Positions 1 through 12,387 of a stretch of DNA of 12,387 nucleotides are shown piece after piece; within the stretch, counting starts at the first letter, position 1, and each line of letters opens with the position of its first letter. A program made the translations under genes and the position numbers. The stretch lies in the IMG/VR virus record IMGVR_UViG_3300015182_000009; one strand, written 5' to 3'. Source of the DNA: a virus (Duplodnaviria > Heunggongvirae > Uroviricota > Caudoviricetes). The notes beneath the pieces were generated by a model. That model had not been told where the DNA came from. It made no database searches and was given only the letters and a program-made list of their open reading frames with translations.

Positions 1-55
1 GATACGGCGACCACCGAGATCTACACTCTTTCCCTACACGACGCTCTTCCGATCT
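1..55. other. Illumina TruSeq universal (P5) adapter sequence; sequencing/assembly artefact, not genomic
   Basis: Positions 1-55 read GATACGGCGACCACCGAGATCTACACTCTTTCCCTACACGACGCTCTTCCGATCT, which is the TruSeq universal adapter minus its first three bases (AAT). Genomic sequence starts at 56. Confidence 0.9.
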
Positions 56-84
56 ATGAAAATGCGTCTTAGGAAGGTTAAATA

Positions 85-475
85 ATGCACGAAAAGAACA
101 TCGCCCTGCTTTGTGATGAAGCCGACCGACTTTTGCAACTGAACATTAATCTGCTCCGGCAAATGGTTGAGGAGCCAGATGTGTTATCTGACAGTAAGAA
201 CGAAAACAGACTGCTTTTTGATAAACAGAAAGCACTGAAAAGAATTGAGGAGCTGGAGGGCGAACAAATCAAAACCGCCCGCAGGGAGATGGTGCTGGCT
301 GTTGTCGGCACGATGAAAGCAGGCAAATCAACCACCATCAACGCCATTGTGGGGCAGGAAATTCTGCCTAACCGTAACCGCCCCATGACCTCTGTACCGA
401 CGCTCATCCGCCACGTTCCCGGAAAAACTGAGCCGGTTCTCCATCTGGAACATATTCAGCCTGTCCGCAATTTAT
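85..475 (+). pseudogene. Dynamin-like GTPase (CrfC/YjdA-like), N-terminal ~130 codons, truncated by the IS66 insertion
   Basis: ATG at 85 preceded by AGGAAGG. Translation contains a P-loop GTMKAGKST followed by TINAIVGQEILPNRNRPMTSVPTLIRH, as I recall for E. coli CrfC/YjdA. The track ORF 85..519 continues into the IS terminal repeat from 476, so its last 14 codons are IS-derived. Confidence 0.6.
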
Positions 476-501
476 GTAAGCGTCAACGGAGCACCGTATT
501 G
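476..501. repeat. IS66 terminal inverted repeat (IRR in element orientation)
   Basis: GTAAGCGTCAACGGAGCACCGTATTG matches about 19 of 24 positions with the reverse complement of the other end. Confidence 0.6.
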
Positions 502-505
502 ACGC

Positions 506-2119
506 TTATTTATTGGTGAGTACTACGTTCCATGGCAGGAGTTCATCAACTCGGTTGGAAGGCCATTCCGGCAGTACGCTCAGGATATGGCGCAGATACG
601 CTTCCGGATCGATACCGTTCAGACGGCAGGTGCCGATCAGCCCGTACAACAGTGCTCCACGCTCGCCGCCGTGATCGCTGCCAAAGAACATAAAGTTTTT
701 CTTTCCGAGACAGACTGCACGAAGCGCTCTTTCCGCAGCATTATTATCCGCCTCCGCCAGACCGTCATCACTGTAATAACAGAGGGCATCCCACTGATTC
801 AGTACATAGCTGAACGCTTCGCCCAGTCTGGATTTTTTCGACAGCGTACCATTCTTCTCCACCATCCATTCATGCAGCGACGTCAGTAACACTTTGCTTC
901 GCTGCTGCCTGACGGCAAGACGCTCTGACTCCGGTAATCCCCGTATTTCATCCTCGATGGCGTACAGTTCACTGATTCGCTTCAGTGCTTCTTCTGCCGT
1001 CGCACTTTTGCTGCTGATGTATACATCGTGGATTTTTCGCCGGGCATGGGCCCAGCACGCAACTTCTGTCAGTGCACCACCTTCACGTTCTGCACTGAAC
1101 AACCTGTCGTAACCTGTGAACGCATCCGCCTGCAGGATACCCCGGAAGGGGCGGAGGTGTTGCTCCGGGTGTTTCCCCTGCCGGTTCGGCGAGTACGCGA
1201 ACCAGACCGCTGGAGGAGATGACGAACCCACATTGCGATCATCCCGGACATACGTCCAGATACGCCCTGTTTTCGCCTTTTTCTGACCCGGTGCCAGTAC
1301 CTTTACCGGTGTGTCATCAGTGTGAATCTTGCGGGTGTTCATTACATAACGGTACAGGGCATCATTCACCGGTGTCATTAACTGGCAGCACGCGTCAACC
1401 CAGTTGGAGAGTAAGGCCCGGCTCAGTTCGACACCCTGGCGGGCAAAGATTTCACTCTGACGATACAGTGGCAGATGTTCGCAGTATTTTCCCGTTAACA
1501 CGCGGGCAAGTAATCCGGGGCCCGCGATACCACGCTCTATCGGGCGGGACGGCGCCGGTGCTTCAACAATACAGTCACATTTTGTACAGGCTTTTTTTAC
1601 CCGTTCTGTGCGGATCACTTTCAGGGCACTGCTCACCAGTTCCAGCTGTTCAGCGCTGACTTCCCCCAGATAATCCAGCTTACCGCCACACTCCGGGCAA
1701 CAGCTTTCTTCTGGCTCCAGGCGGTGTATTTCACGGGGAAGGTGTGCCGGTAACGGACGACGATGGCGCGACTGTCGCAACTGGCGGGGAACCTGAGGAT
1801 CGTCTTCCCGCCCACTGTAACGATCGCTGTCCTGTTCACGTTGTTTCAGCAGAGCCTCAGCCAGTTCAACTTCACGACGCAGTTTTTCAGAACGGGTACC
1901 GAACAGCATCCGGCGCAGTTTTTCTATCTGAGCCCGCAGATGTTCTATTTCCCGTTCATCTTCTTCGATCTTTTCTTCGGCACGTGTCAGTGCAGAGCGC
2001 AGGAAGGCTTCCGTCTCTTCAACCAGACTCAGTTGCTGGTCTTTCTGACGGAGGGCTTCAGCCTGCTCAGAGAGCAACCTTTCCAGCTCTGCGATGCGAA
2101 TGAGGTATTTCTGACTCAT
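506..2119 (-). CDS. tnpC: IS66-family transposase TnpC (orf3)
   Basis: 537-aa ORF with a coiled/leucine-rich N-terminus and Cys motifs CPECGGK...CTKCDC, recognised as the large IS66 transposase. It lies 30 nt downstream of orf2. Confidence 0.88.
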   Translation of the reverse strand: MSQKYLIRIAELERLLSEQAEALRQKDQQLSLVEETEAFLRSALTRAEEKIEEDEREIEHLRAQIEKLRRMLFGTRSEKLRREVELAEALLKQREQDSDRYSGREDDPQVPRQLRQSRHRRPLPAHLPREIHRLEPEESCCPECGGKLDYLGEVSAEQLELVSSALKVIRTERVKKACTKCDCIVEAPAPSRPIERGIAGPGLLARVLTGKYCEHLPLYRQSEIFARQGVELSRALLSNWVDACCQLMTPVNDALYRYVMNTRKIHTDDTPVKVLAPGQKKAKTGRIWTYVRDDRNVGSSSPPAVWFAYSPNRQGKHPEQHLRPFRGILQADAFTGYDRLFSAEREGGALTEVACWAHARRKIHDVYISSKSATAEEALKRISELYAIEDEIRGLPESERLAVRQQRSKVLLTSLHEWMVEKNGTLSKKSRLGEAFSYVLNQWDALCYYSDDGLAEADNNAAERALRAVCLGKKNFMFFGSDHGGERGALLYGLIGTCRLNGIDPEAYLRHILSVLPEWPSNRVDELLPWNVVLTNK

Positions 2120-2149
2120 GACCGTTTTTATAATGCGGTCAGGAGTTTT

Positions 2150-2500
2150 TTACAACATTGTCAGTGAGTTACGGCTGGATGTTTTTGGCTGACGCCAGTC
2201 CAGCTTATCGAGGAGCATTGCCAGTTGCGAGCGGGTAATGGATACCTTGCCGTCACGTACCGCAGGCCAGATAAACTGGCCTTCCTCCAGGCGTTTGGTG
2301 AACAGGCACAGACCATCAGCATCAGCCCAAAGAATTTTGACGGTGTCACCCCGTCGGCCACGGAAGATAAACAGGTGACCGGAGAAGGGATTATCATTCA
2401 GCACATGTTGTACCTGTTCTCCCAGTCCGTTGAAGGATTTACGCATATCGGTAACGCCGGCAACGAGCCAGATACGGGTACCTGATGGGAGTGAGATCAT
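2150..2500 (-). CDS. tnpB: IS66-family accessory protein TnpB (orf2)
   Basis: 116-aa ORF (MISLPSGTRIWLVAGVTDMRKSFNGL...) typical of IS66 orf2. Its start overlaps the orf1 stop by 4 nt (2497-2500), consistent with translational coupling. Confidence 0.85.
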   Translation of the reverse strand: MISLPSGTRIWLVAGVTDMRKSFNGLGEQVQHVLNDNPFSGHLFIFRGRRGDTVKILWADADGLCLFTKRLEEGQFIWPAVRDGKVSITRSQLAMLLDKLDWRQPKTSSRNSLTML

Positions 2501-2922
2501 CTTCCCCTCCCGGTCAGTTCACGGATCAACACTGTGAGCAGCTCTGGCGATGGATTTTCCAGCGTCATGTTACCGTGACGGAATTCCACCTTGCAGGAAC
2601 TGGCACTGACTCTGGTCTGAGTGGAAGTGGATAAAGACGGCGCAATGGCCGCCACAGGTTCTTTCTGCTCATCCGGCGTTATTTCTACAGGTAATAATTC
2701 AACGCCAGTGTCAGAAGAGGTCGTTACCGGAAGACGCCGCGAAACACGCCCTTCGTTCTGCCAGAGCCTGAGCCATTTGAAAATAACATTATCATTGACG
2801 CCATTTTCACGTGCAATCTGTGCAACACAAGCTCCAGGTTGTGATGCCAGTTCCACCATACGAAGTTTGAATTCATTCGAATAGTTTTTACGAGGTTCTT
2901 TTCGCCAGTCCTGTAATTCCAT
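2497..2922 (-). CDS. tnpA: IS66-family accessory protein TnpA (orf1), helix-turn-helix
   Basis: 141-aa ORF; the segment ELASQPGACVAQIARENGVNDNVIFKWLR looks like an HTH. It is the first gene inward from the element's left repeat. Confidence 0.8.
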   Translation of the reverse strand: MELQDWRKEPRKNYSNEFKLRMVELASQPGACVAQIARENGVNDNVIFKWLRLWQNEGRVSRRLPVTTSSDTGVELLPVEITPDEQKEPVAAIAPSLSTSTQTRVSASSCKVEFRHGNMTLENPSPELLTVLIRELTGRGR

Positions 2923-2935
2923 ACTTAGATGTCCG

Positions 2936-2965
2936 TCTATATCAGATGGGCGTCTAAGTTACCAA
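2936..2965 (-). promoter_or_regulatory. Possible sigma70-like promoter for the IS66 orf1-3 operon
   Basis: On the minus strand, TTGGTA, an 18-nt spacer, then TATAGA, located between the left repeat and the orf1 start. Sequence resemblance only. Confidence 0.2.
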
Positions 2966-2981
2966 TTCTCGTCTGATGGCT

Positions 2982-3007
2982 ACATACGGCGGTCAGTTTA
3001 CGCTTAC
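2982..3007. repeat. IS66 terminal inverted repeat (IRL in element orientation)
   Basis: ...CGGCGGTCAGTTTACGCTTAC; its reverse complement GTAAGCGTAAACTGACCGCCG pairs with 476-501. Confidence 0.6.
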
Positions 3008-3009
3008 GG

Positions 3010-3204
3010 GTCAGGGCCATTGGAGATGTGAATGGTGGCGGTGGATTTGTTTATTCTCCCGTGTATCACATCAGCATTCAGAATCAAGGGAGCAATGGCG
3101 AGATAGATGCGCGCTCAGCCAGGGGACTGGTGGATCTGATCGACAGCAGGGTTGTGTCAATTATGCAGTCATCGCGTCGGGATGGAGGATTGTACAGTGC
3201 CTGA
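3010..3204 (+). pseudogene. H: Tail tape-measure protein (lambda H-like), C-terminal 64 codons only; 5' part removed at the IS66 junction
   Basis: Frame 1 is open from the IS boundary: VRAIGDVNGGGGFVYSPVYHISIQNQGSNGEIDARSARGLVDLIDSRVVSIMQSSRRDGGLYSA*. The stop at 3202-3204 sits 5 nt after the M start, as at the lambda H/M junction. There is no start codon or upstream sequence. Confidence 0.55.
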
Positions 3205-3538
3205 GCCTGAAGTTTTTAACTGGATCCCCCGTGAGGGGATGGAGACGACACGAAAGCCATCAGTTATTACGGTAAAGTTTGGTGACGGATATGAACAGCG
3301 ACGGGCTGGTGGTCTGAATGCGGATCTGAAAACGTTTAAACCGGTATTTCGTGTCACAGATGAATATTCCCGTGCCGCGCTGGACAGTTTTTTATCCCGT
3401 CATGCCGGGATTCGTGCTTTTTTGTGGCGTCCGCCAAAACACAACAGGACTGTCCGGGTTGTCTGCAGGGAGTGGAGCATTTCGGATAATGCCATGTATA
3501 CCGATTTTAACTGTACCTTTGAAGAGGTCACTCACTGA
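3197..3538 (+). CDS. M: Minor tail protein M (lambda gpM-like)
   Basis: Translation ...FNWIPREGMETTRKPSVITVKFGDGYEQRRAGGLNADLKTF... aligns with lambda gpM (FRWKVKPGMDV...VRFGDGYSQRAPAGLNANLKTY). I chose the GTG at 3197 because GGAGGA sits 7 nt upstream and it gives 113 aa against lambda's 109. In-frame ATGs at 3182 and 3152 (the track start) are alternatives. The stop overlaps the L start (TGATG). Confidence 0.8.
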   Translation: MPEPEVFNWIPREGMETTRKPSVITVKFGDGYEQRRAGGLNADLKTFKPVFRVTDEYSRAALDSFLSRHAGIRAFLWRPPKHNRTVRVVCREWSISDNAMYTDFNCTFEEVTH

Positions 3539-4236
3539 TGCAGGATATACAGCAGGAAACACTCAATGAGTGCACTAAAACGGAGCAATCCGCGCTGGTC
3601 GTGCTCTGGGAAATTGATCTGACAGAGGTCGGCGGAGATCGTTATTTCTTCTGTAATGAGCAGAACGAAAAAGGTGAACCAGTCACCTGGCAGGGGCGGC
3701 AGTATCAGGCTTATCCCATTCAGGGAAGCGGATTTGAGATGAACGGCAAAGGAGCCAGTGCAAGGCCAACGCTTAAAGTCTCTAATCTGTACGGCATGGT
3801 CACCGGGATGGCGGAAGATATGCAGAGTCTGGTCGGCGGAACGGTGGTCCGGCGTAAGGTTTACGCCCGTTTTCTGGATGCGGTGAACTTCGTCAACGGA
3901 AACAGTTACGCCGATCCGGAGCAGGAGGTGATCAGCCGCTGGCGCATTGAGCAGTGCAGCGAACTGAGCGCGGTGAGTGCCTCCTTTGTACTGTCCACGC
4001 CGACGGAAACGGATGGCGCTGTTTTTCCGGGACGTATCATGCTGGCCAACACCTGCACCTGGACCTATCGCGGTGACGAGTGCGGTTATAGCGGTCCGGC
4101 TGTCGCGGATGAATATGACCAGCCAACGTCCGATATCACGAAGGATAAATGCAGCAAATGCCTGAGCGGTTGTAAGTTCCGCAATAACGTCGGCAACTTT
4201 GGCGGCTTCCTTTCCATTAACAAACTTTCGCAGTAA
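3538..4236 (+). CDS. L: Minor tail protein L (lambda gpL-like)
   Basis: 232 aa, the same length as lambda gpL, with a Cys-rich C-terminus (CSKCLSGCKF). It sits immediately after M with an overlapping start. Confidence 0.9.
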   Translation: MQDIQQETLNECTKTEQSALVVLWEIDLTEVGGDRYFFCNEQNEKGEPVTWQGRQYQAYPIQGSGFEMNGKGASARPTLKVSNLYGMVTGMAEDMQSLVGGTVVRRKVYARFLDAVNFVNGNSYADPEQEVISRWRIEQCSELSAVSASFVLSTPTETDGAVFPGRIMLANTCTWTYRGDECGYSGPAVADEYDQPTSDITKDKCSKCLSGCKFRNNVGNFGGFLSINKLSQ

Positions 4237-4241
4237 ATCCC

Positions 4242-4985
4242 ATGACACAGACAGAATCAGCGATTCTGGCGCACGCCCGGCGATGTGCGCCAGCGGAGTC
4301 GTGCGGCTTCGTGGTAAGCACGCCGGAGGGGGAAAGATATTTTCCCTGCGTGAATATCTCCGGTGAGCCGGAGGCGTATTTCCGTATGTCGCCGGAAGAC
4401 TGGCTGCAGGCAGAAATGCAGGGTGAGATTGTGGCGCTGGTCCACAGCCACCCCGGTGGTCTGCCCTGGCTGAGTGAGGCCGACCGGCGGCTGCAGGTGC
4501 AGAGTGATTTGCCGTGGTGGCTGGTCTGCCGGGGGGCGATTCACAAGTTCCGCTGTGTGCCGCATCTTACCGGGCGGCGCTTTGAGCACGGGGTGACGGA
4601 CTGTTACACGCTGCTCCGGGATGCTTACCATCTGGCGGGAATTGAGATGCCTGATTTTCATCGTGAGGATGACTGGTGGCGTAACGGCCAGAATCTCTAT
4701 CTGGATAATCTGGAGGCGACGGGGCTGTATCAGGTGCCGTTGTCAGCGGCACAGCCGGGCGATGTGCTGCTGTGCTGTTTTGGTTCATCGGTGCCGAATC
4801 ACGCCGCAATTTACTGCGGCGACGGCGAGCTGCTGCACCATATTCCTGAACAACTGAGCAAACGAGAGAGGTACACCGACAAATGGCAGCGACGCACACA
4901 CTCCCTCTGGCGTCACCGGGCATGGCACGTATCTGCCTTTACGGGGATTTGCAACGATTTGGCCGCCGCATCGACCTTCGTGTGA
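4242..4985 (+). CDS. K: Tail tip assembly protein K (lambda gpK-like), MPN/JAMM plus NlpC/P60-like domains
   Basis: JAMM-type motif HSHPGGLPWLSEADR and a C-terminal Cys/His region (DCYTLL...HAAIY). The long ORF starts 5 nt after the L stop. The classical 199-aa lambda K corresponds to the internal ATG at 4386 (MSPEDWLQ...). The 3' end overlaps gene I by 103 nt. Confidence 0.85.
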   Translation: MTQTESAILAHARRCAPAESCGFVVSTPEGERYFPCVNISGEPEAYFRMSPEDWLQAEMQGEIVALVHSHPGGLPWLSEADRRLQVQSDLPWWLVCRGAIHKFRCVPHLTGRRFEHGVTDCYTLLRDAYHLAGIEMPDFHREDDWWRNGQNLYLDNLEATGLYQVPLSAAQPGDVLLCCFGSSVPNHAAIYCGDGELLHHIPEQLSKRERYTDKWQRRTHSLWRHRAWHVSAFTGICNDLAAASTFV

Positions 4986-5530
4986 AAACGGGGGCCGAAG
5001 CCATCCGGGCGCTGGCCATGCAGATCCCGGCGTTTCGTCAGAAACTGAGCGATGGCTGGTATCAGGTGCGCATTGCCGGGCGTGATGCAGGCGAAAACGA
5101 ATTATCAGCCCGTCTTAATGAGCCGCTGAAAAATGGTGCCGTGATCCACATCGTTCCGCGTCTTGCGGGAGCAAAAAGTGGCGGTGTGTTTCAGGCGGTG
5201 CTGGGTGCGGCGCTGATTGCAGTGGCGTGGTGGAACCCTGTGGGCTGGCTGGGAGCTGCGGCTGTATCGGGCATGTATGCTGCGGGGGCCAGTATGATCC
5301 TTGGCGGTGTGGCGCAGATGCTGGCACCGAAAGCCAGAACTCCCCGTACACAGACAACGGATAACGGTAAGCAGAACACCTATTTCTCCTCACTGGATAA
5401 CATGGTTGCCCAGGGCAATGTTCTGCCCGTTCTGTACGGTGAAATGCGCGTGGGGTCGCGGGTGGCTTCTCAGGAGATCAGCACGGCAGACGAAGGGGAC
5501 GGTGGTCAGGTTGTGGTGATTGGTCGCTGA
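4883..5530 (+). CDS. I: Tail tip assembly protein I (lambda gpI-like)
   Basis: Begins MAATHTLPLASPGMARICLYGDLQRFGRRIDLRVKTGAEAIRALA and ends ...QEISTADEGDGGQVVVIGR, as I recall for lambda gpI. 215 aa, with the start overlapping K in a different frame. Confidence 0.9.
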   Translation: MAATHTLPLASPGMARICLYGDLQRFGRRIDLRVKTGAEAIRALAMQIPAFRQKLSDGWYQVRIAGRDAGENELSARLNEPLKNGAVIHIVPRLAGAKSGGVFQAVLGAALIAVAWWNPVGWLGAAAVSGMYAAGASMILGGVAQMLAPKARTPRTQTTDNGKQNTYFSSLDNMVAQGNVLPVLYGEMRVGSRVASQEISTADEGDGGQVVVIGR

Positions 5531-5548
5531 TGCAAAACGTTTTATGTG

Positions 5549-5575
5549 AAACCGCCTCAGGGCGGTTTTGTCGTT
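5549..5575 (+). terminator. Stem-loop plus U-run between I and J (possible attenuator or RNA processing site)
   Basis: AAACCGCC-TCAG-GGCGGTTT then TGTCGTTT. The J ribosome-binding site GAGGA follows at 5586-5590. Confidence 0.35.
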
Positions 5576-5590
5576 TCTGGAGCGTGAGGA

Positions 5591-8500
5591 ATGGGTAAAG
5601 GCAGCAGTAAGGGGCATACCCCGCGCGAAGCGAAGGACAACCTGAAATCATCCCAGATGCTGAGCGTGATAGACGCCATCAGTGAAGGGCCGGTTGAAGG
5701 TCCGGTGGATGGATTAAAAAGCGTGCTGCTGAACAGTACGCCGGTGCTGGACACTGAGGGGAATACCAACATCTCCGGTGTCACGGTGGTGTTCCGTGCC
5801 GGTGAGCAGGAGCAGACACCGCCGGAGGGGTTTGAATCCTCCGGCTCCGAGACGGTGCTGGGTACGGAAGTGAAATATGACACGCCGATCACCCGCACCA
5901 TCACGTCTGCAAACATCGACCGTCTGCGCTTTACCTTCGGTGTGCAGGCACTGGTGGAAACCACCTCAAAGGGGGACCGGAATCCGTCGGAAGTTCGCCT
6001 GCTGGTTCAGATACAGCGTAATGGTGGCTGGGTGACGGAAAAAGACATCACCATTAAGGGCAAAACCACCTCGCAGTATCTGGCCTCGGTGGTGGTGGAT
6101 AACCTGCCGCCGCGCCCGTTTAATATCCGGATGCGCAGGATGACGCCGGACAGCACCACAGACCAGCTGCAGAACAAAACGCTCTGGTCGTCATACACCG
6201 AAATCATCGATGTGAAACAGTGCTACCCGAACACGGCACTGGTCGGCGTACAGGTGGATTCGGAGCAGTTCGGCAGCCAGCAGGTGAGCCGTAATTATCA
6301 TCTGCGCGGGCGCATTCTGCAGGTGCCGTCGAACTATAACCCGCAGACGCGGCAATACAGCGGTATCTGGGACGGAACGTTTAAACCGGCATACAGCAAC
6401 AACATGGCCTGGTGTCTGTGGGATATGCTGACCCATCCGCGCTACGGCATGGGGAAACGTCTTGGTGCGGCGGATGTGGATAAATGGGCGCTGTATGTCA
6501 TCGGCCAGTACTGCGACCAGTCGGTGCCGGACGGCTTTGGCGGCACGGAGCCGCGCATCACCTGTAATGCGTACCTGACCACACAGCGCAAGGCGTGGGA
6601 TGTGCTCAGTGATTTCTGCTCGGCGATGCGCTGTATGCCGGTATGGAACGGGCAGACGCTGACGTTCGTGCAGGACCGACCATCAGATAAGGTGTGGACC
6701 TATAACCGCAGTAATGTGGTGATGCCGGATGATGGCGCGCCGTTCCGCTACAGCTTCAGCGCCCTGAAAGACCGCCATAATGCCGTTGAGGTGAACTGGA
6801 TTGACCCGGACAACGGCTGGGAGACGGCGACAGAGCTTGTTGAAGATACGCAGGCCATTGCCCGTTACGGTCGTAACGTCACGAAGATGGATGCCTTTGG
6901 CTGTACCAGCCGGGGGCAGGCGCACCGCGCCGGGCTGTGGCTGATTAAAACGGAACTGCTGGAAACGCAGACCGTGGACTTCAGCGTGGGTGCGGAAGGG
7001 CTTCGCCATGTACCGGGGGATGTCATTGAAATCTGCGATGATGACTATGCGGGTATCAGCACCGGCGGGCGCGTGCTGGCGGTGAACAGCCAGACCCGGA
7101 CGCTGACGCTCGACCGTGAAATCACGCTGCCATCCTCCGGTACCACGCTGATAAGCCTGGTTGACGGTCAGGGTAATCCGGTCAGCGTGGAGGTCCAGTC
7201 CGTCACCGACGGCGTGAAGGTGAAAGTGAGCCGGGTTCCTGATGGTGTTGCAGAATACAGCGTGTGGGGGCTGAAGTTGCCGACGCTGCGCCAGCGCCTG
7301 TTCCGCTGTGTGAGTATCCGTGAGAACGATGACGGCACGTATGCCATCACCGCCGTGCAGCATGTACCGGAAAAAGAAGCCATCGTGGATAACGGGGCGC
7401 ACTTTGACGGCGACCAGAGCGGCACGGTGAATGGTGTCACGCCGCCAGCGGTGCAGCACCTGACTGCCGAAGTCACCGCAGACAGCGGGGAATATCAGGT
7501 GCTGGCGCGCTGGGACACGCCGAAGGTGGTGAAGGGCGTGAGCTTCCTGCTCCGTCTGACCGTAACAGCGGATGACGGCAGTGAGTGGCTGGTCAGCACG
7601 GCCCGGACGACGGAAACCACTTACCGCTTCACACAACTGGCGCTGGGGAACTACAGGCTGACAGTCCGGGCAGTAAATGCGTGGGGGCAGCAGGGCGATC
7701 CGGCGTCGGTATCGTTCCGGATTGCCGCACCGGCAGCGCCGTCGCGGATTGAGCTGACGCCGGGCTATTTTCAGATAACCGCCACGCCGCATCTTGCGGT
7801 TTATGATCCGACGGTACAGTTTGAGTTCTGGTTCTCGGAAAAGCGGATTACCGATATCAGGCAGGTTGAAACCACAGCACGCTATCTTGGCACGGCGCTG
7901 TACTGGATAGCCGCCAGTATCAATATCAAACCGGGCCATGATTATTACTTTTATATCCGCAGTGTGAACACCGTTGGCAAATCGGCATTCGTGGAGGCTG
8001 TTGGTCAGCCGAGTGATGATGCATCCGGTTATCTGGATTTTTTCAAAGGCGAGATAGGGAAAACCCATCTGGCTCAGGAGCTGTGGACGCAGATTGATAA
8101 CGGTCAGCTTGCGCCTGACCTGGCTGAAATCAGGACGTCCATTACGGATGTCAGCAATGAAATCACGCAGACCGTCAATAAGAAACTGGAAGACCAGAGT
8201 GCGGCAATTCAGCAGATACAGAAGGTTCAGGTTGATACAAATAATAACCTGAACAGCATGTGGGCTGTGAAGCTGCAGCAGATGCAGGACGGACGCCTTT
8301 ATATCGCGGGTATTGGTGCCGGTATTGAGAACACCCCTGACGGCATGCAGAGTCAGGTGCTGCTGGCGGCAGACAGGATTGCGATGATTAATCCTGCGAA
8401 TGGCAACACAAAGCCGATGTTTGTTGGGCAGGGCGATCAGATATTCATGAACGAAGTGTTCCTGAAACGCCTGACGGCTCCCACCATTACCAGCGGCGGT

Positions 8501-9070
8501 AATCCTCCGGTATTTTCCCTGACACCGGACGGGCGGCTGACGGCGAAAAATGCCGATATCAGCGGTAACGTGAATGCGAACGCCGGGACGCTCAACAACG
8601 TCACGATTAACGAGAACTGTCGGGTTCTGGGAAAACTGTCCGCCAACCAGATTGAAGGCGATCTCGTTAAAACAGTGGGCAAAGCTTTCCCCCGGGACTC
8701 CCGTGCACCGGAACGGTGGCCATCAGGGACCATCACCGTCAGGGTTTATGACGATCAGCCGTTTGACCGGCAGATTGTTATTCCGGCGGTGGCATTCAGC
8801 GGCGCTAAACATGAGCGGGAGAATAACGATATTTATTCGTCATGCCGCCTGATAGTACGGAAAAACGGTGCTGAAATTTATAACCGTACCGCGCTGGATA
8901 ATACGCTGATTTACAGTGGTGTTATTGATATGCCTGCCGGTCACGGTCACATGACACTGGAGTTTTCGGTGTCAGCATGGCTGGTAAATAACTGGTATCC
9001 CACAGCCAGTATCAGCGATTTGCTGGTTGTGGTGATGAAGAAAGCCACTGCAGGCATCACGATTAGCTGA
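5591..9070 (+). CDS. J: Central tail fibre / host specificity protein J (lambda gpJ-like)
   Basis: 1159-aa ORF starting [20 protein letters not shown]..., as recalled for lambda gpJ (1132 aa). The long antisense ORF 6683..8068 is a by-product of this gene's composition. Confidence 0.92.
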
Positions 9071-9088
9071 ATTTTATAACCCAGATAC

Positions 9089-9113
9089 GGGCGCCAGAAA
9101 TGGCGCCTTTTTT
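9089..9113 (+). terminator. Rho-independent terminator downstream of J
   Basis: GGCGCC-AGAAAT-GGCGCC hairpin (9090-9107) followed by TTTTTT (9108-9113). Confidence 0.7.
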
Positions 9114-9137
9114 ATTGCAGAAAAGCGAGAGGTAATT

Positions 9138-9737
9138 ATGCGTAAAGTTTATGCAGCTATTTTGTCCGCAGCCATCTGTCTGGCCGTATCAGGTACGCCT
9201 GCATGGGCGTCTGAACACCAGTCCACACTGAGCGCAGGGTATCTTCATGCCCGTACGAACGTCCCCGGCAGCGATAATCTGAACGGGATTAACGTGAAAT
9301 ACCGTTATGAATTTACGGACACGCTGGGGCTGGTGACGTCATTCAGTTATGCCAATGCCAAAGATGAGCAAAAAACGCATTACAGCGATACCCGCTGGCA
9401 TGAAGATTCCGTGCGTAACCGCTGGTTCAGCGTGATGGCGGGGCCGTCTGTGCGCGTGAATGAATGGTTCAGCGCGTATGCGATGGCGGGTATGGCTTAC
9501 AGCCGTGTGTCGACTTTCTCCGGGGATTATCTCCGCGTAACTGACAACAAGGGGAAAACGCACGACGTGCTGACCGGAAGTGATGACGGTCGCCACAGCA
9601 ACACGTCTCTGGCGTGGGGGGCTGGCGTGCAGTTTAACCCGACCGAATCCGTGGCCGTTGATGTCGCTTATGAAGGTTCCGGCAGTGGCGACTGGCGCAC
9701 TGACGGTTTCATCGTGGGTGTCGGTTATAAATTCTGA
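9138..9737 (+). CDS. lom: Outer-membrane protein Lom (Ail/Lom/OmpX family beta-barrel), a lysogenic-conversion moron
   Basis: 199 aa with a signal peptide (MRKVYAAILSAAICLAVSGTPAWA) and a C-terminus ...YEGSGSGDWRTDGFIVGVGYKF matching the lambda Lom ending. The ribosome-binding site GAGAGG lies upstream. Its position between J and stf is as in lambda. Confidence 0.9.
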   Translation: MRKVYAAILSAAICLAVSGTPAWASEHQSTLSAGYLHARTNVPGSDNLNGINVKYRYEFTDTLGLVTSFSYANAKDEQKTHYSDTRWHEDSVRNRWFSVMAGPSVRVNEWFSAYAMAGMAYSRVSTFSGDYLRVTDNKGKTHDVLTGSDDGRHSNTSLAWGAGVQFNPTESVAVDVAYEGSGSGDWRTDGFIVGVGYKF

Positions 9738-9763
9738 TTAGCCAGGTAACACAGTGTTATGAC

Positions 9764-9790
9764 AGCCCGCCGGTTCAGGCGGGCTTTTTT
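9764..9790 (+). terminator. Rho-independent terminator downstream of lom
   Basis: AGCCCGCC-GGTTCA-GGCGGGCT hairpin followed by TTTTTT. Confidence 0.75.
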
Positions 9791-9801
9791 GTGGGGTGAA
9801 T

Positions 9802-12387
9802 ATGGCAGTAAAGATTTCAGGTGTACTGAAAGACGGCACAGGAAAACCGGTACAGAACTGCACAATCCAGCTGAAAGCAAAACGTAACAGTACCACGGTG
9901 GTGGTGAACACGCTGGCCTCAGAAAATCCGGATGAAGCCGGGCGTTACAGCATGGACGTTGAGTACGGTCAGTACAGCGTTATTCTGTTGGTGGAAGGAT
10001 TCCCGCCGTCACATGCCGGGACCATCACCGTGTATGAAGATTCCCGACCCGGTACGCTGAATGATTTTCTCGGTGCCATGACGGAGGATGATGCCCGTCC
10101 TGAGGCACTGCGCCGTTTTGAACTGATGGTGGAAGAGGTGGCGCGTAACGCGTCCGCGGTGGCACAGAACACGGCAGCCGCGAAGAAGTCAGCCAGCGAT
10201 GCCAGCACATCAGCCCGTGAGGCGGCAACCCGTGCGACTGATGCTGCAGGCTCAGCACGTGCAGCCAGCACGTCAGCCGGACAGGCCGCGTCGTCGGCTC
10301 AGTCAGCGTCTTCCAGCGCAGGAACGGCATCAACAAAGGCCACTGAAGCATCAAAAAGTGCTGCCGCCGCAGAGTCTTCAAAAAGCGCGGCAGCCACCAG
10401 TGCCGGTGCAGCGAAAACGTCGGAAATGAATGCCGCAGCATCACAAAAATCTGCGGCCACATCTGCATCCACCGCGACCACGAAAGCGTCAGAAGCTGCC
10501 ACCTCAGCCCGGGATGCGTCGGCTTCAAAAGTGGCGGCAAAATCATCAGAAACGAGCGCTGCCTCGAGCGCCGGCAGTGCAGCTTCCTCGGCAACGGCAG
10601 CAGGAAATTCCGCGAAGGCCGCAAAAACGTCTGAGACGAATGCGGATAACAGCGCACAGGCGGCAGCAGACTCACAAACTGCATCGGCAAACTCCGCGAC
10701 AGCAGCCAAAAAATCAGAAACCAACGCGAAAAATAGTGAGGCAGCAGCAAAGGTCAGCGAAACCAACGCTAAAGCGTCAGAGAACAAGGCGAAAGAATAT
10801 CTCGACAAGGTCGGGGGACTCGTCAGCCCGATGACGCAATACGATTGGCCCGTTGTTACTGGTAATGAGTCTTTTTACATAAAGATCGCGAAACTTTCCG
10901 ATCCCGGAAGCGGCAATTGCCATGTAACGCTAATGGTTACTAATGCCGGTAACTACGGCTCCCCTTACGGAAACATTGACTTTATCGAGATCTCGGCGCG
11001 CGGTCTGCCTTCTTTGCTTAGTGCGGATAATGTTTCTCGTCATCTGAGTATACGCCGCTTAGGGTCAACCGGGCTGACCGATAACAACCAGATGCGTTAC
11101 GGCCTGGTTAAAGGTGACGGCTTTATTGAGGTTTGGGCCTTCCAGCGCGCATTTATCAACGGCGCAAAGGTTGCGGTGCTGGCGCAGACGGCACGCCCGG
11201 AATTATACATTCCAGACGGATTTGTTAAGCAAACCGCCGCGCCTTCTGGATATGTTGAAAGCCCCGTTGTAAGGATTTACGACCAGTTAAACAAGCCGAC
11301 TAAAGCAGATTTGGGTCTTTCTAATGCTATGCTTACAGGCGCTTTCGGTCTTGGCGGTAGCGGGATATCAACAAACGGCAAGATGAGCGATGTAGAGATC
11401 TTAAAAGCTCTGCGTGACAAAGGTGGTCATTTCTGGCGCGGTGATAAGCCGACCGGAAGCACGGCGACCATTTATAGCCACGGTTCTGGTATATTCTCGC
11501 GGTGCGGCGATACGTGGTCAGCGATCAATATCGACTACTCAACCGCGAAGATTAAGATCTATGCCGGCAACGATGCCCGGCTTAACAACGGGACTTTTAG
11601 CATCAATGAGCTATACGGCTCGGCAAACAAGCCGTCGAAATCGGATGTTGGACTTGGCAACGTAACTAACGATGCGCAGGTGAAAAAATCCGGCGATGTT
11701 ATGTCTGGTGATCTTGATATATTGAAAGAAACGCCATCTATCAGGCTAAAATCAGCAAAAGGAACCGCTCATCTGTGGTTCATGAACAACGACGGAAGCG
11801 AGCGCGGCGTTGTTTGGTCGCCTGAAAACAACGAATCACTTGGCGAAATCCACATCAGGGCGAAAAACACAAAAGGTGAATCAAGTGGTGATTTTATTGT
11901 TCGCCACGACGGGAGGGTTGAGGCCCGCAATCTAAAAATAACTTACAAAATCAGCGCAGCCACCGCAGAATTTGCAAACACAAGCACCAGTTCCGATAAC
12001 ACTACGGTAAGCATCAAAGGATCTCAGCATACGCCTTTGGTTTTAACGAGCAACAACACAATTAAAAACTTGTCCATTGGGTTTAAGGTTGATGATGTTG
12101 ATCAAAAATACCTGGGTATAGCTGGTGACGGTGATTTGTATTTTGGTAGTTATTCTGACCACACAAAAAACAGCAAAGTAATCACACAAGCAAAACTCGA
12201 TAGCGGGGTGACGGTAGGCGGTAAAACAACCTTTTCTGACTTTGCCACATTTAACGCAGGTATGGCGGGATCTATCGAGCCGGAAACCATTGACAACAAG
12301 ACTATTGATTTAAACGACTTGATCATTGCTAATACAGTGGCTGGATCTGTTAAATACTATCAATGCAAAACTGTTGCAGGTGGTGCA
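9802..12387 (+). CDS. stf: Side tail fibre protein (lambda Stf-like N-terminus, divergent distal region); 3' end lies beyond the window
   Basis: ATG at 9802 opens a frame-1 reading frame with no stop to the window end (862 codons). It is missing from the ORF track, presumably because that track lists only ORFs with a stop inside the window. The N-terminus MAVKISGVLKDGTGKPVQNCTIQLKA...SMDVEYGQYSVIL...FPPSHAGTITVYEDS matches lambda Stf, followed by an Ala/Ser/Thr/Lys-rich shaft and then an unrelated AT-richer distal region. Confidence 0.85.
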   Translation, partial: MAVKISGVLKDGTGKPVQNCTIQLKAKRNSTTVVVNTLASENPDEAGRYSMDVEYGQYSVILLVEGFPPSHAGTITVYEDSRPGTLNDFLGAMTEDDARPEALRRFELMVEEVARNASAVAQNTAAAKKSASDASTSAREAATRATDAAGSARAASTSAGQAASSAQSASSSAGTASTKATEASKSAAAAESSKSAAATSAGAAKTSEMNAAASQKSAATSASTATTKASEAATSARDASASKVAAKSSETSAASSAGSAASSATAAGNSAKAAKTSETNADNSAQAAADSQTASANSATAAKKSETNAKNSEAAAKVSETNAKASENKAKEYLDKVGGLVSPMTQYDWPVVTGNESFYIKIAKLSDPGSGNCHVTLMVTNAGNYGSPYGNIDFIEISARGLPSLLSADNVSRHLSIRRLGSTGLTDNNQMRYGLVKGDGFIEVWAFQRAFINGAKVAVLAQTARPELYIPDGFVKQTAAPSGYVESPVVRIYDQLNKPTKADLGLSNAMLTGAFGLGGSGISTNGKMSDVEILKALRDKGGHFWRGDKPTGSTATIYSHGSGIFSRCGDTWSAINIDYSTAKIKIYAGNDARLNNGTFSINELYGSANKPSKSDVGLGNVTNDAQVKKSGDVMSGDLDILKETPSIRLKSAKGTAHLWFMNNDGSERGVVWSPENNESLGEIHIRAKNTKGESSGDFIVRHDGRVEARNLKITYKISAATAEFANTSTSSDNTTVSIKGSQHTPLVLTSNNTIKNLSIGFKVDDVDQKYLGIAGDGDLYFGSYSDHTKNSKVITQAKLDSGVTVGGKTTFSDFATFNAGMAGSIEPETIDNKTIDLNDLIIANTVAGSVKYYQCKTVAGGA

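What the first reader, a model, noticed from the sequence alone, without database searches (positions are those of the whole stretch)
3008..3204. Prophage is defective: tape-measure gene reduced to a 64-codon stub, with no head or tail-shaft genes upstream
The tail-tip genes M, L, K, I, J and the lom and stf genes are intact and in lambda order, but the tape-measure gene is cut at the IS boundary and everything upstream is absent within this window. Such a remnant cannot build tails by itself. The preserved tip and fibre genes could still be used by recombination with infecting lambdoid phages, or be maintained for the lom moron.
Basis: inference. Interest (0 to 1): 0.5.

Follow-up and report, generated by a model that had tools for sequence, protein, structure and literature searches.

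The report
IS-split tape-measure gene on chimeric contig
The 64-codon tape-measure stub is real, but it comes from an ordinary insertion sequence (ISEc23) jumping into an otherwise complete E. coli prophage; the apparent loss of the head and tail-shaft genes most likely arises because the short-read contig was joined through a repeated IS copy to an unrelated gene.

Summary
Window 3010-3204 is the last 64 codons of a 1075-aa HK97/lambda-type tape-measure gene. It starts exactly at the right end of a complete 2532-bp ISEc23 (476-3007).

The interpretation, a remnant that has lost its head and tail-shaft genes, is not supported.
- The IS has no matching 8-bp target duplication in the window: CAATTTAT on the left, GGGTCAGG on the right.
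- Its left flank is the 5' end of a dynamin-family gene that lies about 0.9 Mb away in a close complete relative. A deletion could not give this order.
- Position 1-55 is untrimmed Illumina adapter.
- I predicted the reciprocal junctions and found them exactly in public data.
  - One 9.8-kb contig runs from portal through capsid, tail tube, G and T to tape-measure codons 1-1013, then GGGTCAGG and the ISEc23 left end.
  - Another contig from the same assembly carries the ISEc23 right end, CAATTTAT and the dynamin 3' part.

So there are two simple ISEc23 insertions, and the window joins one flank of each through the shared repeat.

The prophage is still probably tail-defective. The IS separates the C-terminal helix, the part of lambda gpH that sits in the tail tip, from the rest of the protein. 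This is ordinary biology plus an assembly artefact.

The parts
1..55 (.). Untrimmed Illumina TruSeq universal (P5) adapter. It marks the window as the raw end of a short-read contig.
   Evidence: Read directly. Positions 1-55 equal adapter bases 4-58. Identity to the chromosomal sequence in L007 starts at window 56.
56..475 (+). Upstream region and first 130 codons (85-474) of a chromosomal dynamin-family GTPase gene, cut by the IS left end. The ORF 85-519 reads 14 codons into the IS.
   Evidence: 99.8% identical to the start of a 798-aa 'dynamin family protein' gene in many complete genomes. Pfam Dynamin_N, E = 1e-11. The identical junction is present in ENA contig L007.
468..475 (.). CAATTTAT: left copy of the 8-bp target duplication of the ISEc23 insertion in the dynamin gene. 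Its partner is not in the window.
   Evidence: L014 (ERZ27315463:k141_17093) reads ...ACGCTTAC|CAATTTAT|TAATCAC.... The intact gene reads CAATTTATTAATCAC.
476..3007 (-). Complete ISEc23 (IS66 family), 2532 bp. tnpC is at 506-2119, tnpB at 2150-2500 and tnpA at 2497-2922, all on the minus strand. The terminal inverted repeats are 476-499 and 2984-3007.
   Evidence: 100% identical over its full length to annotated ISEc23 copies. ORFs, inverted repeats.
3008..3015 (.). GGGTCAGG: right copy of the 8-bp target duplication of the ISEc23 insertion in the tape-measure gene. Its partner is not in the window.
   Evidence: L011 and L012 read ...CTCTTGGGGTCAGG|GTAAGCGTCAACGG.... The intact gene reads CTCTTGGGGTCAGGGCCATTGG.
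3010..3204 (+). 3' stub of the tape-measure gene: residues 1012-1075 plus the stop codon. Positions 3103-3177 encode the counterpart of the lambda gpH C-terminal helix (gpH 818-842) that sits in the tail-tip lumen.
   Evidence: The location of the gpH helix is taken from PMC10721106.
3182..3538 (+). M-like distal tail protein gene. It overlaps the end of the stub, as in intact relatives.
   Evidence: Pfam Phage_min_tail, E = 1e-31. Identical to the annotated CDS in L001.
3538..4236 (+). L-like minor tail protein gene.
   Evidence: Pfam Phage_tail_L, E = 8e-101.
4242..4985 (+). K-like gene (JAB plus NlpC/P60 peptidase domains).
4883..5530 (+). I-like tail assembly gene. The ORF overlaps K by about 100 nt, as in lambda. 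RefSeq annotates the start at 4982.
   Evidence: Pfam Lambda_tail_I, E = 4e-24.
5591..9070 (+). J-like central tail fibre / tip attachment gene, 1159 aa.
   Evidence: Six gpJ-specific Pfam domains.
9138..9737 (+). lom (Ail/Lom outer-membrane protein), bracketed by terminator-like hairpins at 9089-9108 and 9764-9785.
   Evidence: Pfam Ail_Lom, E = 3.5e-125; hairpins.
9802..12387 (+). First 862 codons of the side tail fibre gene stf, still open at the window end.
   Evidence: Pfam phage_tail_N, E = 1e-71. In the identical relatives the annotated CDS is 1107 codons and abuts an IS3-family element.

Best explanation
A lambdoid, HK97-headed prophage of about 46 kb, which in close relatives sits between potC and potB, received a simple cut-or-copy-and-paste insertion of ISEc23 (IS66 family) into its tape-measure gene after codon 1013, with an 8-bp target duplication GGGTCAGG.

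The same strain, or the same sample, also has an ISEc23 insertion in the same orientation in a dynamin-family gene about 0.9 Mb away, with target duplication CAATTTAT.

The two 2.5-kb IS copies are identical and longer than short-read inserts. The assembler therefore walked from the dynamin 5' flank through the IS and out into the tape-measure 3' flank, producing this 12,387-bp contig. The head and tail-shaft genes are not lost. They lie immediately upstream of the same IS on another contig.

Biologically, the insertion leaves a 1021-aa product (1013 tape-measure residues plus VSVNGAPY). This product lacks the C-terminal segment, including the helix that in lambda docks as a trimeric coiled coil on the gpI plug inside the tip. 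The insertion also places 2.5 kb of antisense IS between the late promoter and M-L-K-I-J. Tail initiation and expression of the tip genes are therefore probably both compromised.

Shown: the two insertions, their target duplications, and the presence of the upstream morphogenesis genes. Inferred: that the join is an assembler mis-join rather than a real recombinant, and that the phage is functionally tail-less.
For: 1. The flanks of the IS in the window do not match (CAATTTAT versus GGGTCAGG), whereas a bona fide ISEc23 insertion in GPEC673 has an 8-bp duplication, GGAAATCT.

2. From the window alone I predicted the product of the reciprocal tape-measure junction, H(1-1013)+VSVNGAPY. It exists exactly in the 15-billion-protein collection. 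The opposite-orientation prediction does not.

3. That product is encoded on L011 (ENA ERZ27315463:k141_6347, 9792 bp). L011 carries portal, protease, capsid, connector, head closure, gp10-like, gp17, the Ig-domain major tail gene, G, T and the tape-measure 5' part, and then 141 nt of the ISEc23 left end. The 141 nt equal the k-mer size implied by the contig name, as expected at a repeat branch. The product is also on L012 (Logan SRR6795035), which stops 30 nt into the IS.

4. The predicted fusion of the IS right end to the dynamin 3' part (681 aa) also exists exactly. Its listed sources are JGI/IMG and ENA, the same two sources as the window's own 144-aa dynamin-5'::IS ORF. For that ORF the longest contig on record is 12,387 bp, the length of this window. 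The fusion lies on L014, from the same ENA assembly, with the duplication CAATTTAT.

5. In strain 4/2-1, which is 100% identical across window 3008-12387, the tape-measure gene is at 1.222 Mb and the dynamin gene at 2.121 Mb, on the same strand. The order dynamin-5' -> IS -> tape-measure-3' is therefore not a deletion junction.

6. ISEc23 is widespread and multi-copy. 2488 of 5426 complete genomes hold a near-full copy, and relatives with the identical prophage tail region carry identical copies.

7. Adapter sequence at window 1-55, and at the end of L007, shows untrimmed, low-stringency assembly.

8. The stub aligns to gpH 806-850. gpH 818-842 is the coiled coil held by gpI in the tip lumen (PMC10721106).
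Against: No reads or long reads were available, so the physical linkage across the 2.5-kb IS was not tested.

I could not prove that the JGI/IMG contig (the window), ENA ERZ27315463 and SRR6795035 come from the same sample. The link rests on sharing junctions that are absent from 5426 complete E. coli genomes and otherwise not on record.

The 1021-aa tape-measure-5'::IS product is listed for ENA and Logan but not for JGI/IMG.

The same-strand, 0.9-Mb arrangement was verified in one genome holding both loci. For other genomes it is only inferred, from consistent coordinates in different genomes.

The functional consequence of the truncation is inferred from lambda, at 33% identity over 45 residues.
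Confidence: 0.82

Rival explanations
1. The join is real. Homologous recombination between the two directly repeated ISEc23 copies produced a junction dynamin-5'-IS-tape-measure-3'. This would be, for example, the novel joint of an approximately 0.9-Mb tandem duplication, or another IS-mediated rearrangement in a chromosome arranged differently from strain 4/2-1. The head genes would still be present elsewhere in the genome.
For: Two same-orientation identical IS copies are exactly the substrate for such events. The contig as deposited does traverse the IS. Short contigs cannot tell parental from recombinant linkage. All four junction types are compatible with a duplication.
Against: From general knowledge, large tandem duplications are unstable minority states and would not normally win an assembly path. 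In the independent MEGAHIT assembly the tape-measure 5' contig (L011) stops exactly 141 nt into the IS and the other two junction contigs stop 79-95 nt in, so the IS is unresolved there. The window contig has adapter at its end.
Confidence: 0.1
2. One reading: an IS-associated deletion removed everything upstream of codon 1012 of the tape-measure gene. What remains is a true remnant with only tip, lom and fibre genes.
For: Within the window nothing phage-like lies upstream of the IS, and the IS flanks lack a shared target duplication. That pattern is also what an IS-mediated adjacent deletion leaves.
Against: The deleted material exists, joined to the same IS end with the matching target duplication, in two public datasets. 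One of them shares the window's rare left junction. The IS-right-end::dynamin-3' junction is also on record in JGI/IMG and ENA, so the IS has at least two right-hand contexts. With the gene order of strain 4/2-1, a deletion would give tape-measure-5'-IS-dynamin-3', not the observed order. The observed order would require deleting about 3.8 Mb, which by general knowledge of the E. coli map would include oriC.
Confidence: 0.04
3. The contig mixes two E. coli strains in a metagenome. One strain carries the tape-measure::ISEc23 insertion, the other the dynamin::ISEc23 insertion, and they were merged through the shared IS.
For: The listed sources are JGI/IMG and an ENA metagenome-type assembly with MEGAHIT-style contig names. 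Assemblers do merge strains through shared repeats.
Against: Nothing distinguishes this from the single-strain mis-join. Both flanks are 99.8-100% identical to the same clonal group, for example strain 4/2-1. The consequence for the finding is the same: the upstream genes are not lost.
Confidence: 0.04

Closest known systems
ISEc23 (IS66 family) simple transposition into a chromosomal or prophage gene
   Same: A complete 2532-bp element with tnpA, tnpB and tnpC and GTAAGCG... terminal repeats. It is 100% identical to annotated ISEc23 copies. The 8-bp target duplications are recovered once the reciprocal junctions are paired. Other genomes carry ISEc23 in the capsid or tape-measure genes of related prophages (EC554, S1-INA-02-B).
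   Different: This exact insertion site (after codon 1013 of the tape-measure gene) is not present in any of 5426 complete E. coli genomes. It is a private, recent event.
Lambda gpH / HK97-type tail tape-measure protein
   Same: The intact relative has the TMP_3, Phage_HK97_TLTM and Tape_meas_lam_C domains. Its C-terminal third is colinear with gpH, followed by M-L-K-I-J-lom-stf in lambda order. The stub aligns with the gpH C-terminal tip helix.
   Different: It is 1075 aa against 853 aa, with only 26-33% identity to gpH. The head module is HK97-like (portal, S78 protease, HK97 capsid), not lambda-like.
IS-inactivated lambdoid prophages of E. coli, such as IS629-hit prophages of O157 Sakai and the K-12 cryptic prophages (from my own knowledge, e.g. 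Asadulghani et al. 2009; not re-read here)
   Same: A largely complete prophage is made defective by IS insertion in a morphogenesis gene. The remaining modules are available for recombination with other lambdoid phages.
   Different: In this case the defect is a single recent IS hit, plus older IS damage at stf/tfa in the lineage.
Repeat-mediated chimeric contigs in short-read assemblies
   Same: A repeat longer than the insert size, two copies in the same orientation, non-matching target duplications across the repeat, reciprocal junctions on separate contigs (one ending exactly k bases into the repeat), and adapter sequence at the contig end.
   Different: Read-level proof such as paired-end or long-read linkage is not available here.

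Membership tests
Tail tape-measure protein, C-terminal end (lambda gpH / HK97 TMP type) | Colinear identity with the 3' end of a full-length tape-measure gene. | tested here: met
   100% nucleotide identity to the last 197 nt of the 3228-nt gene in L001. The stub equals residues 1012-1075.
Tail tape-measure protein, C-terminal end (lambda gpH / HK97 TMP type) | Homology to the gpH C-terminus, the helix located in the tail-tip lumen. | tested here: met
   Ungapped alignment of stub residues 20-64 to gpH 806-850, 33% identity, E = 1e-7. gpH 818-842 forms the coiled coil in the tip (PMC10721106).
Tail tape-measure protein, C-terminal end (lambda gpH / HK97 TMP type) | A Pfam tape-measure domain within the fragment itself. 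| tested here: not met
   The stub alone hits no Pfam family. The TMP_3, HK97_TLTM and Tape_meas_lam_C domains lie at residues 83-932 of the intact protein, upstream of the break. This is expected for the extreme C-terminus and does not argue against identity.
Tail tape-measure protein, C-terminal end (lambda gpH / HK97 TMP type) | Position immediately upstream of, and overlapping, the M-L-K-I-J tip genes. | tested here: met
   The stop at 3202-3204 overlaps the M start at 3182. The gene order matches lambda.
ISEc23 / IS66 family insertion sequence | Three ORFs (tnpA, tnpB, tnpC) and terminal inverted repeats beginning GTAAGCG. | tested here: met
   ORFs at 2497-2922, 2150-2500 and 506-2119 on the minus strand. 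Inverted repeats at 476-499 and 2984-3007. 100% identity to annotated ISEc23.
ISEc23 / IS66 family insertion sequence | An 8-bp direct target duplication flanking the element. | tested here: not met
   Within the window the flanks are CAATTTAT and GGGTCAGG. The feature is met for each insertion only when the window's junctions are paired with the external contigs L011/L012 (GGGTCAGG) and L014 (CAATTTAT). That is the evidence that the window fuses two different insertions.
   Portal through tape-measure-5' is contiguous with the same IS junction on L011 and L012. Caveat: sample identity with the window is inferred from shared rare junctions.
   In strain 4/2-1 the tape-measure gene is at 1.222 Mb and the dynamin gene at 2.121 Mb, on the same strand. 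A deletion would join tape-measure-5' to dynamin-3', the opposite of what is seen.
Repeat-collapse chimeric contig | A multi-copy repeat longer than the library insert, with both parental junction sets present in the data. | tested here: met
   A 2532-bp multi-copy IS. Three of the junctions are on separate contigs of ERZ27315463 and the fourth is in the window.
Repeat-collapse chimeric contig | Read-pair or long-read evidence that contradicts the contig's linkage. | not testable with these tools
   No reads are accessible. A search for the run and analysis accessions in the literature found nothing.

The most novel reading that the evidence does not exclude
The dynamin-5'-ISEc23-tape-measure-3' joint is physically real. 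It would mark an IS-mediated tandem duplication of about 0.9 Mb, or another large rearrangement spanning the terminus region, in a gut or environmental E. coli population at high enough frequency to be assembled.
Probability: 0.08. Interest if true: 0.3.

Novelty: already known. Interest (0 to 1): 0.08.

Why it matters
The main value is as a caution. A contig edge, or a repeat traversal in a short-read or metagenome assembly, should not be read as a biological deletion. A mismatch between the 8-bp target duplications on the two sides of an IS is a quick test from sequence alone that flags such joins.

Biologically it documents one more recent ISEc23 hit that inactivates a prophage morphogenesis gene in a lineage whose prophage was already eroding at stf/tfa. 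It also documents a second hit in a dynamin/RdcB/patatin island gene. Neither changes current understanding of prophage decay.

Tried and rejected
1. I searched for the exact right junction and the predicted reciprocal tape-measure junction as DNA patterns in viral contigs, genome contigs and metagenome contigs. There were no hits in six scans, so the source contig is not in those DNA collections.

2. Junction BLAST against 5426 complete E. coli genomes found no genome with the right junction. Three genomes had ISEc23 in the dynamin gene, but not at this junction; in the one inspected, GPEC673, the IS sits 147 bp further into the gene.

3. Hits H1-H3 looked like full-length matches. They are unrelated ISEc23 insertions in the capsid gene or elsewhere in related prophages.

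4. Look-up of the 58-aa GTG-started stub ORF returned only a Logan contig that happens to start there (L008), which is uninformative. The 99-aa ORF reading out of the IS across the stub is not on record.

5. The predicted opposite-orientation product (1017 aa), the edge-truncated dynamin products (680 and 140 aa) and the 58-aa stub ORF are not in the collection as exact sequences. P0017, the representative of the dynamin cluster, is an unrelated truncation.

6. An inversion model was rejected. Inversion between inverted IS copies would join dynamin-5' to the reverse complement of tape-measure-5', not to tape-measure-3' on the same strand.

7. A PADLOC scan of the dynamin island proteins gave only weak LeoBC and phospholipase-effector hits (E about 1e-4). 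I make no defence-system claim.

8. A literature search for the run and analysis accessions found nothing.

Full report
**What is in the window.** The window starts with 55 nt of Illumina TruSeq universal adapter. Chromosomal sequence begins at 56.

- Positions 56-475 are the upstream region and first 130 codons of a 'dynamin family protein' gene. They are 99.8% identical to many complete E. coli chromosomes, and Pfam gives Dynamin_N.
- Positions 476-3007 are a complete 2532-bp ISEc23 (IS66 family). tnpC, tnpB and tnpA are on the minus strand and the 24-nt terminal inverted repeats start GTAAGCG. The element is 100% identical to annotated ISEc23 copies.
- From 3008 to the end, the window is 100.0% identical in one piece to more than 20 complete chromosomes. 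There it corresponds to the last 197 nt of a tape-measure gene followed by M, L, K, I, J, lom and stf.

The frame 3010-3204 encodes 64 residues plus a stop. These equal residues 1012-1075 of the intact 1075-aa tape-measure protein, which carries the TMP_3, Phage_HK97_TLTM and Tape_meas_lam_C domains. The stub aligns without gaps to lambda gpH 806-850. Homology ends precisely at the IS terminus. M to lom are full length. stf is open at the window's end, so it cannot be called intact. In the identical relatives it is already interrupted by IS3/IS629 elements and a group II intron.

**Why the 'remnant' reading is doubtful from the window alone.** IS66-family elements make 8-bp target duplications. 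The ISEc23 copy in strain GPEC673 has GGAAATCT on both sides. In the window the flanks are CAATTTAT and GGGTCAGG, so the two sides of the IS come from different insertion events.

In strain 4/2-1, which holds both loci, the tape-measure gene is at 1.222 Mb and the dynamin gene at 2.121 Mb, on the same strand. A deletion between them would join tape-measure-5' to dynamin-3'. The window shows dynamin-5' joined to tape-measure-3'. That order is the joint expected from a tandem duplication, an excised circle, or a mis-join. An inversion would put the two flanks on opposite strands.

ISEc23 is common and multi-copy: a near-full copy is present in 2488 of 5426 complete genomes, with a median of three matching places per genome, counting partial and related IS66-family matches. 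It is therefore a standard assembly-breaking repeat. The adapter at the contig end shows the reads were not cleaned.

**Test by prediction.** If the tape-measure gene suffered a simple insertion in the orientation seen, the other junction must read ...GGGTCAGG|GTAAGCG... and encode H(1-1013)+VSVNGAPY, 1021 aa. If the dynamin gene suffered a simple insertion, the other junction must read ...CGCTTAC|CAATTTAT|TAATC.... Because an ATG lies 32 nt inside the IS right end and is in frame, it must encode a 681-aa fusion.

Exact-sequence look-ups found both predicted proteins. The opposite-orientation alternative was not found.

- The 1021-aa product lies on ENA contig ERZ27315463:k141_6347 (L011). That contig carries portal, S78 protease, HK97 capsid, connector, head-closure, gp10-like, gp17, the Ig-domain major tail gene, the G/T chaperones and the tape-measure 5' part, and ends exactly 141 nt into the ISEc23 left end.
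- The same product lies on Logan contig SRR6795035_5167 (L012), which ends 30 nt into the IS.
- L011 is 99.97% identical to the 4/2-1 prophage up to the duplication, and its IS part is 100% identical to window 476-616 in the same orientation.
- The 681-aa product lies on ERZ27315463:k141_17093 (L014), with the predicted CAATTTAT duplication.
- The window's own 144-aa dynamin-5'::IS ORF is on record only from JGI/IMG and from the same ENA assembly. The longest contig recorded for it is 12,387 bp, the length of this window, and the ENA contig is L007.
- The 681-aa product has the same two sources.

Neither the right junction nor the window's left junction occurs in 5426 complete genomes.

**Conclusion on structure.** There are two ordinary ISEc23 insertions, one in the tape-measure gene and one in the dynamin-family gene, in the same orientation. 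The window combines the left junction of one with the right junction of the other through the shared 2.5-kb repeat.

The most economical reading is an assembler mis-join, at about 0.8. A genuine IS-IS recombinant, for example a duplication joint, cannot be excluded without reads, at about 0.1. The deletion model is essentially refuted, at 0.05 or less. In every surviving model the head and tail-shaft genes are present.

In complete relatives the prophage is a lambdoid element of about 46 kb with int, xis, exo, repressor and cro, replication genes, Q, lysis genes, terminase, and head and tail genes. It lies between potC and potB.

**Conclusion on function (inferred).** The IS separates the last 62 residues from the tape-measure body; codons 1012-1013 are duplicated in the target repeat. 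Those 62 residues include the counterpart of gpH 818-842. In the lambda virion that segment forms the trimeric coiled coil sitting on the gpI plug inside the tip (PMC10721106; alignment).

From established lambda tail assembly, which I recall from my own knowledge, the tape-measure protein joins the J/I/L/K initiator before M and tube polymerisation. Loss of that segment should therefore block tail initiation. The 2.5-kb antisense IS is also likely to be polar on M-J.

**Comparison and novelty.** IS hits in prophage morphogenesis genes, and repeat-mediated chimeric contigs, are both well known. Related prophages in other genomes carry ISEc23 in the capsid gene or elsewhere. Only the exact insertion site is new. 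Interest is low.

Noticed in passing
window 1-55; L007 919-944: There is untrimmed Illumina adapter at the start of the contig (TruSeq universal adapter). The ENA contig that shares the left junction has the read-1 adapter AGATCGGAAGAGCACACGTCTGAACT at its end. Both assemblies were made from uncleaned reads.
   Followed up: yes
window 2976-3007; L014 48-2093: The ISEc23 right end carries an outward-reading ATG 32 nt from its tip. In the dynamin insertion it is in frame and creates a 681-aa IS::dynamin-3' fusion ORF that was called as a gene in public assemblies. In the tape-measure insertion it is out of frame (99-aa ORF 2976-3275).
   Followed up: partly
window 85-475; L005 6029-10394: The interrupted dynamin-family gene heads a trio of dynamin, RdcB/YjcZ-family and patatin-phospholipase genes in an IS-rich island. 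ISEc23 has hit this island at different sites in several genomes (GPEC673, MIN12, B19374, ET151). PADLOC gives only weak LeoBC and phospholipase-effector matches (E about 1e-4), so any defence role is untested.
   Followed up: partly
L010 6952-10074 and L001 24597-26580 (strain 4/2-1): In complete relatives the prophage sits inside the potABCD operon. The integrase is next to potC and the tail-fibre end is next to potB, so potAB and potCD are separated by about 46 kb of phage DNA.
   Followed up: no
window 9089-9108 and 9764-9785: Strong terminator-like hairpins with T-runs lie immediately before and after lom, the classic moron arrangement.
   Followed up: partly
beyond the window 3' end; L001 19121-24364, L002 21584-28140: In the identical relatives the stf/tfa end of the prophage is already degraded. 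There is an IS3-family element directly after stf codon 1107, an IS629 fragment, a group II intron (ltrA), and several tfa and tail-fibre fragments.
   Followed up: partly
L007 1-119 versus L005 3110-3228: Upstream of the dynamin gene, the ENA contig runs into the end of an ISEc12 (IS21 family) element. It matches the opposite ISEc12 end, in reverse orientation, from the one adjacent in strain 4/2-1. The unique segment between ISEc12 and ISEc23 is only about 750 bp, which may explain why the window contig breaks down there.
   Followed up: no
window 10140-10800 and 6683-8068 (minus strand): stf encodes a long Ala/Ser/Thr-rich low-complexity stretch. A 461-aa antisense ORF lies inside J and is probably spurious.
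   Followed up: no
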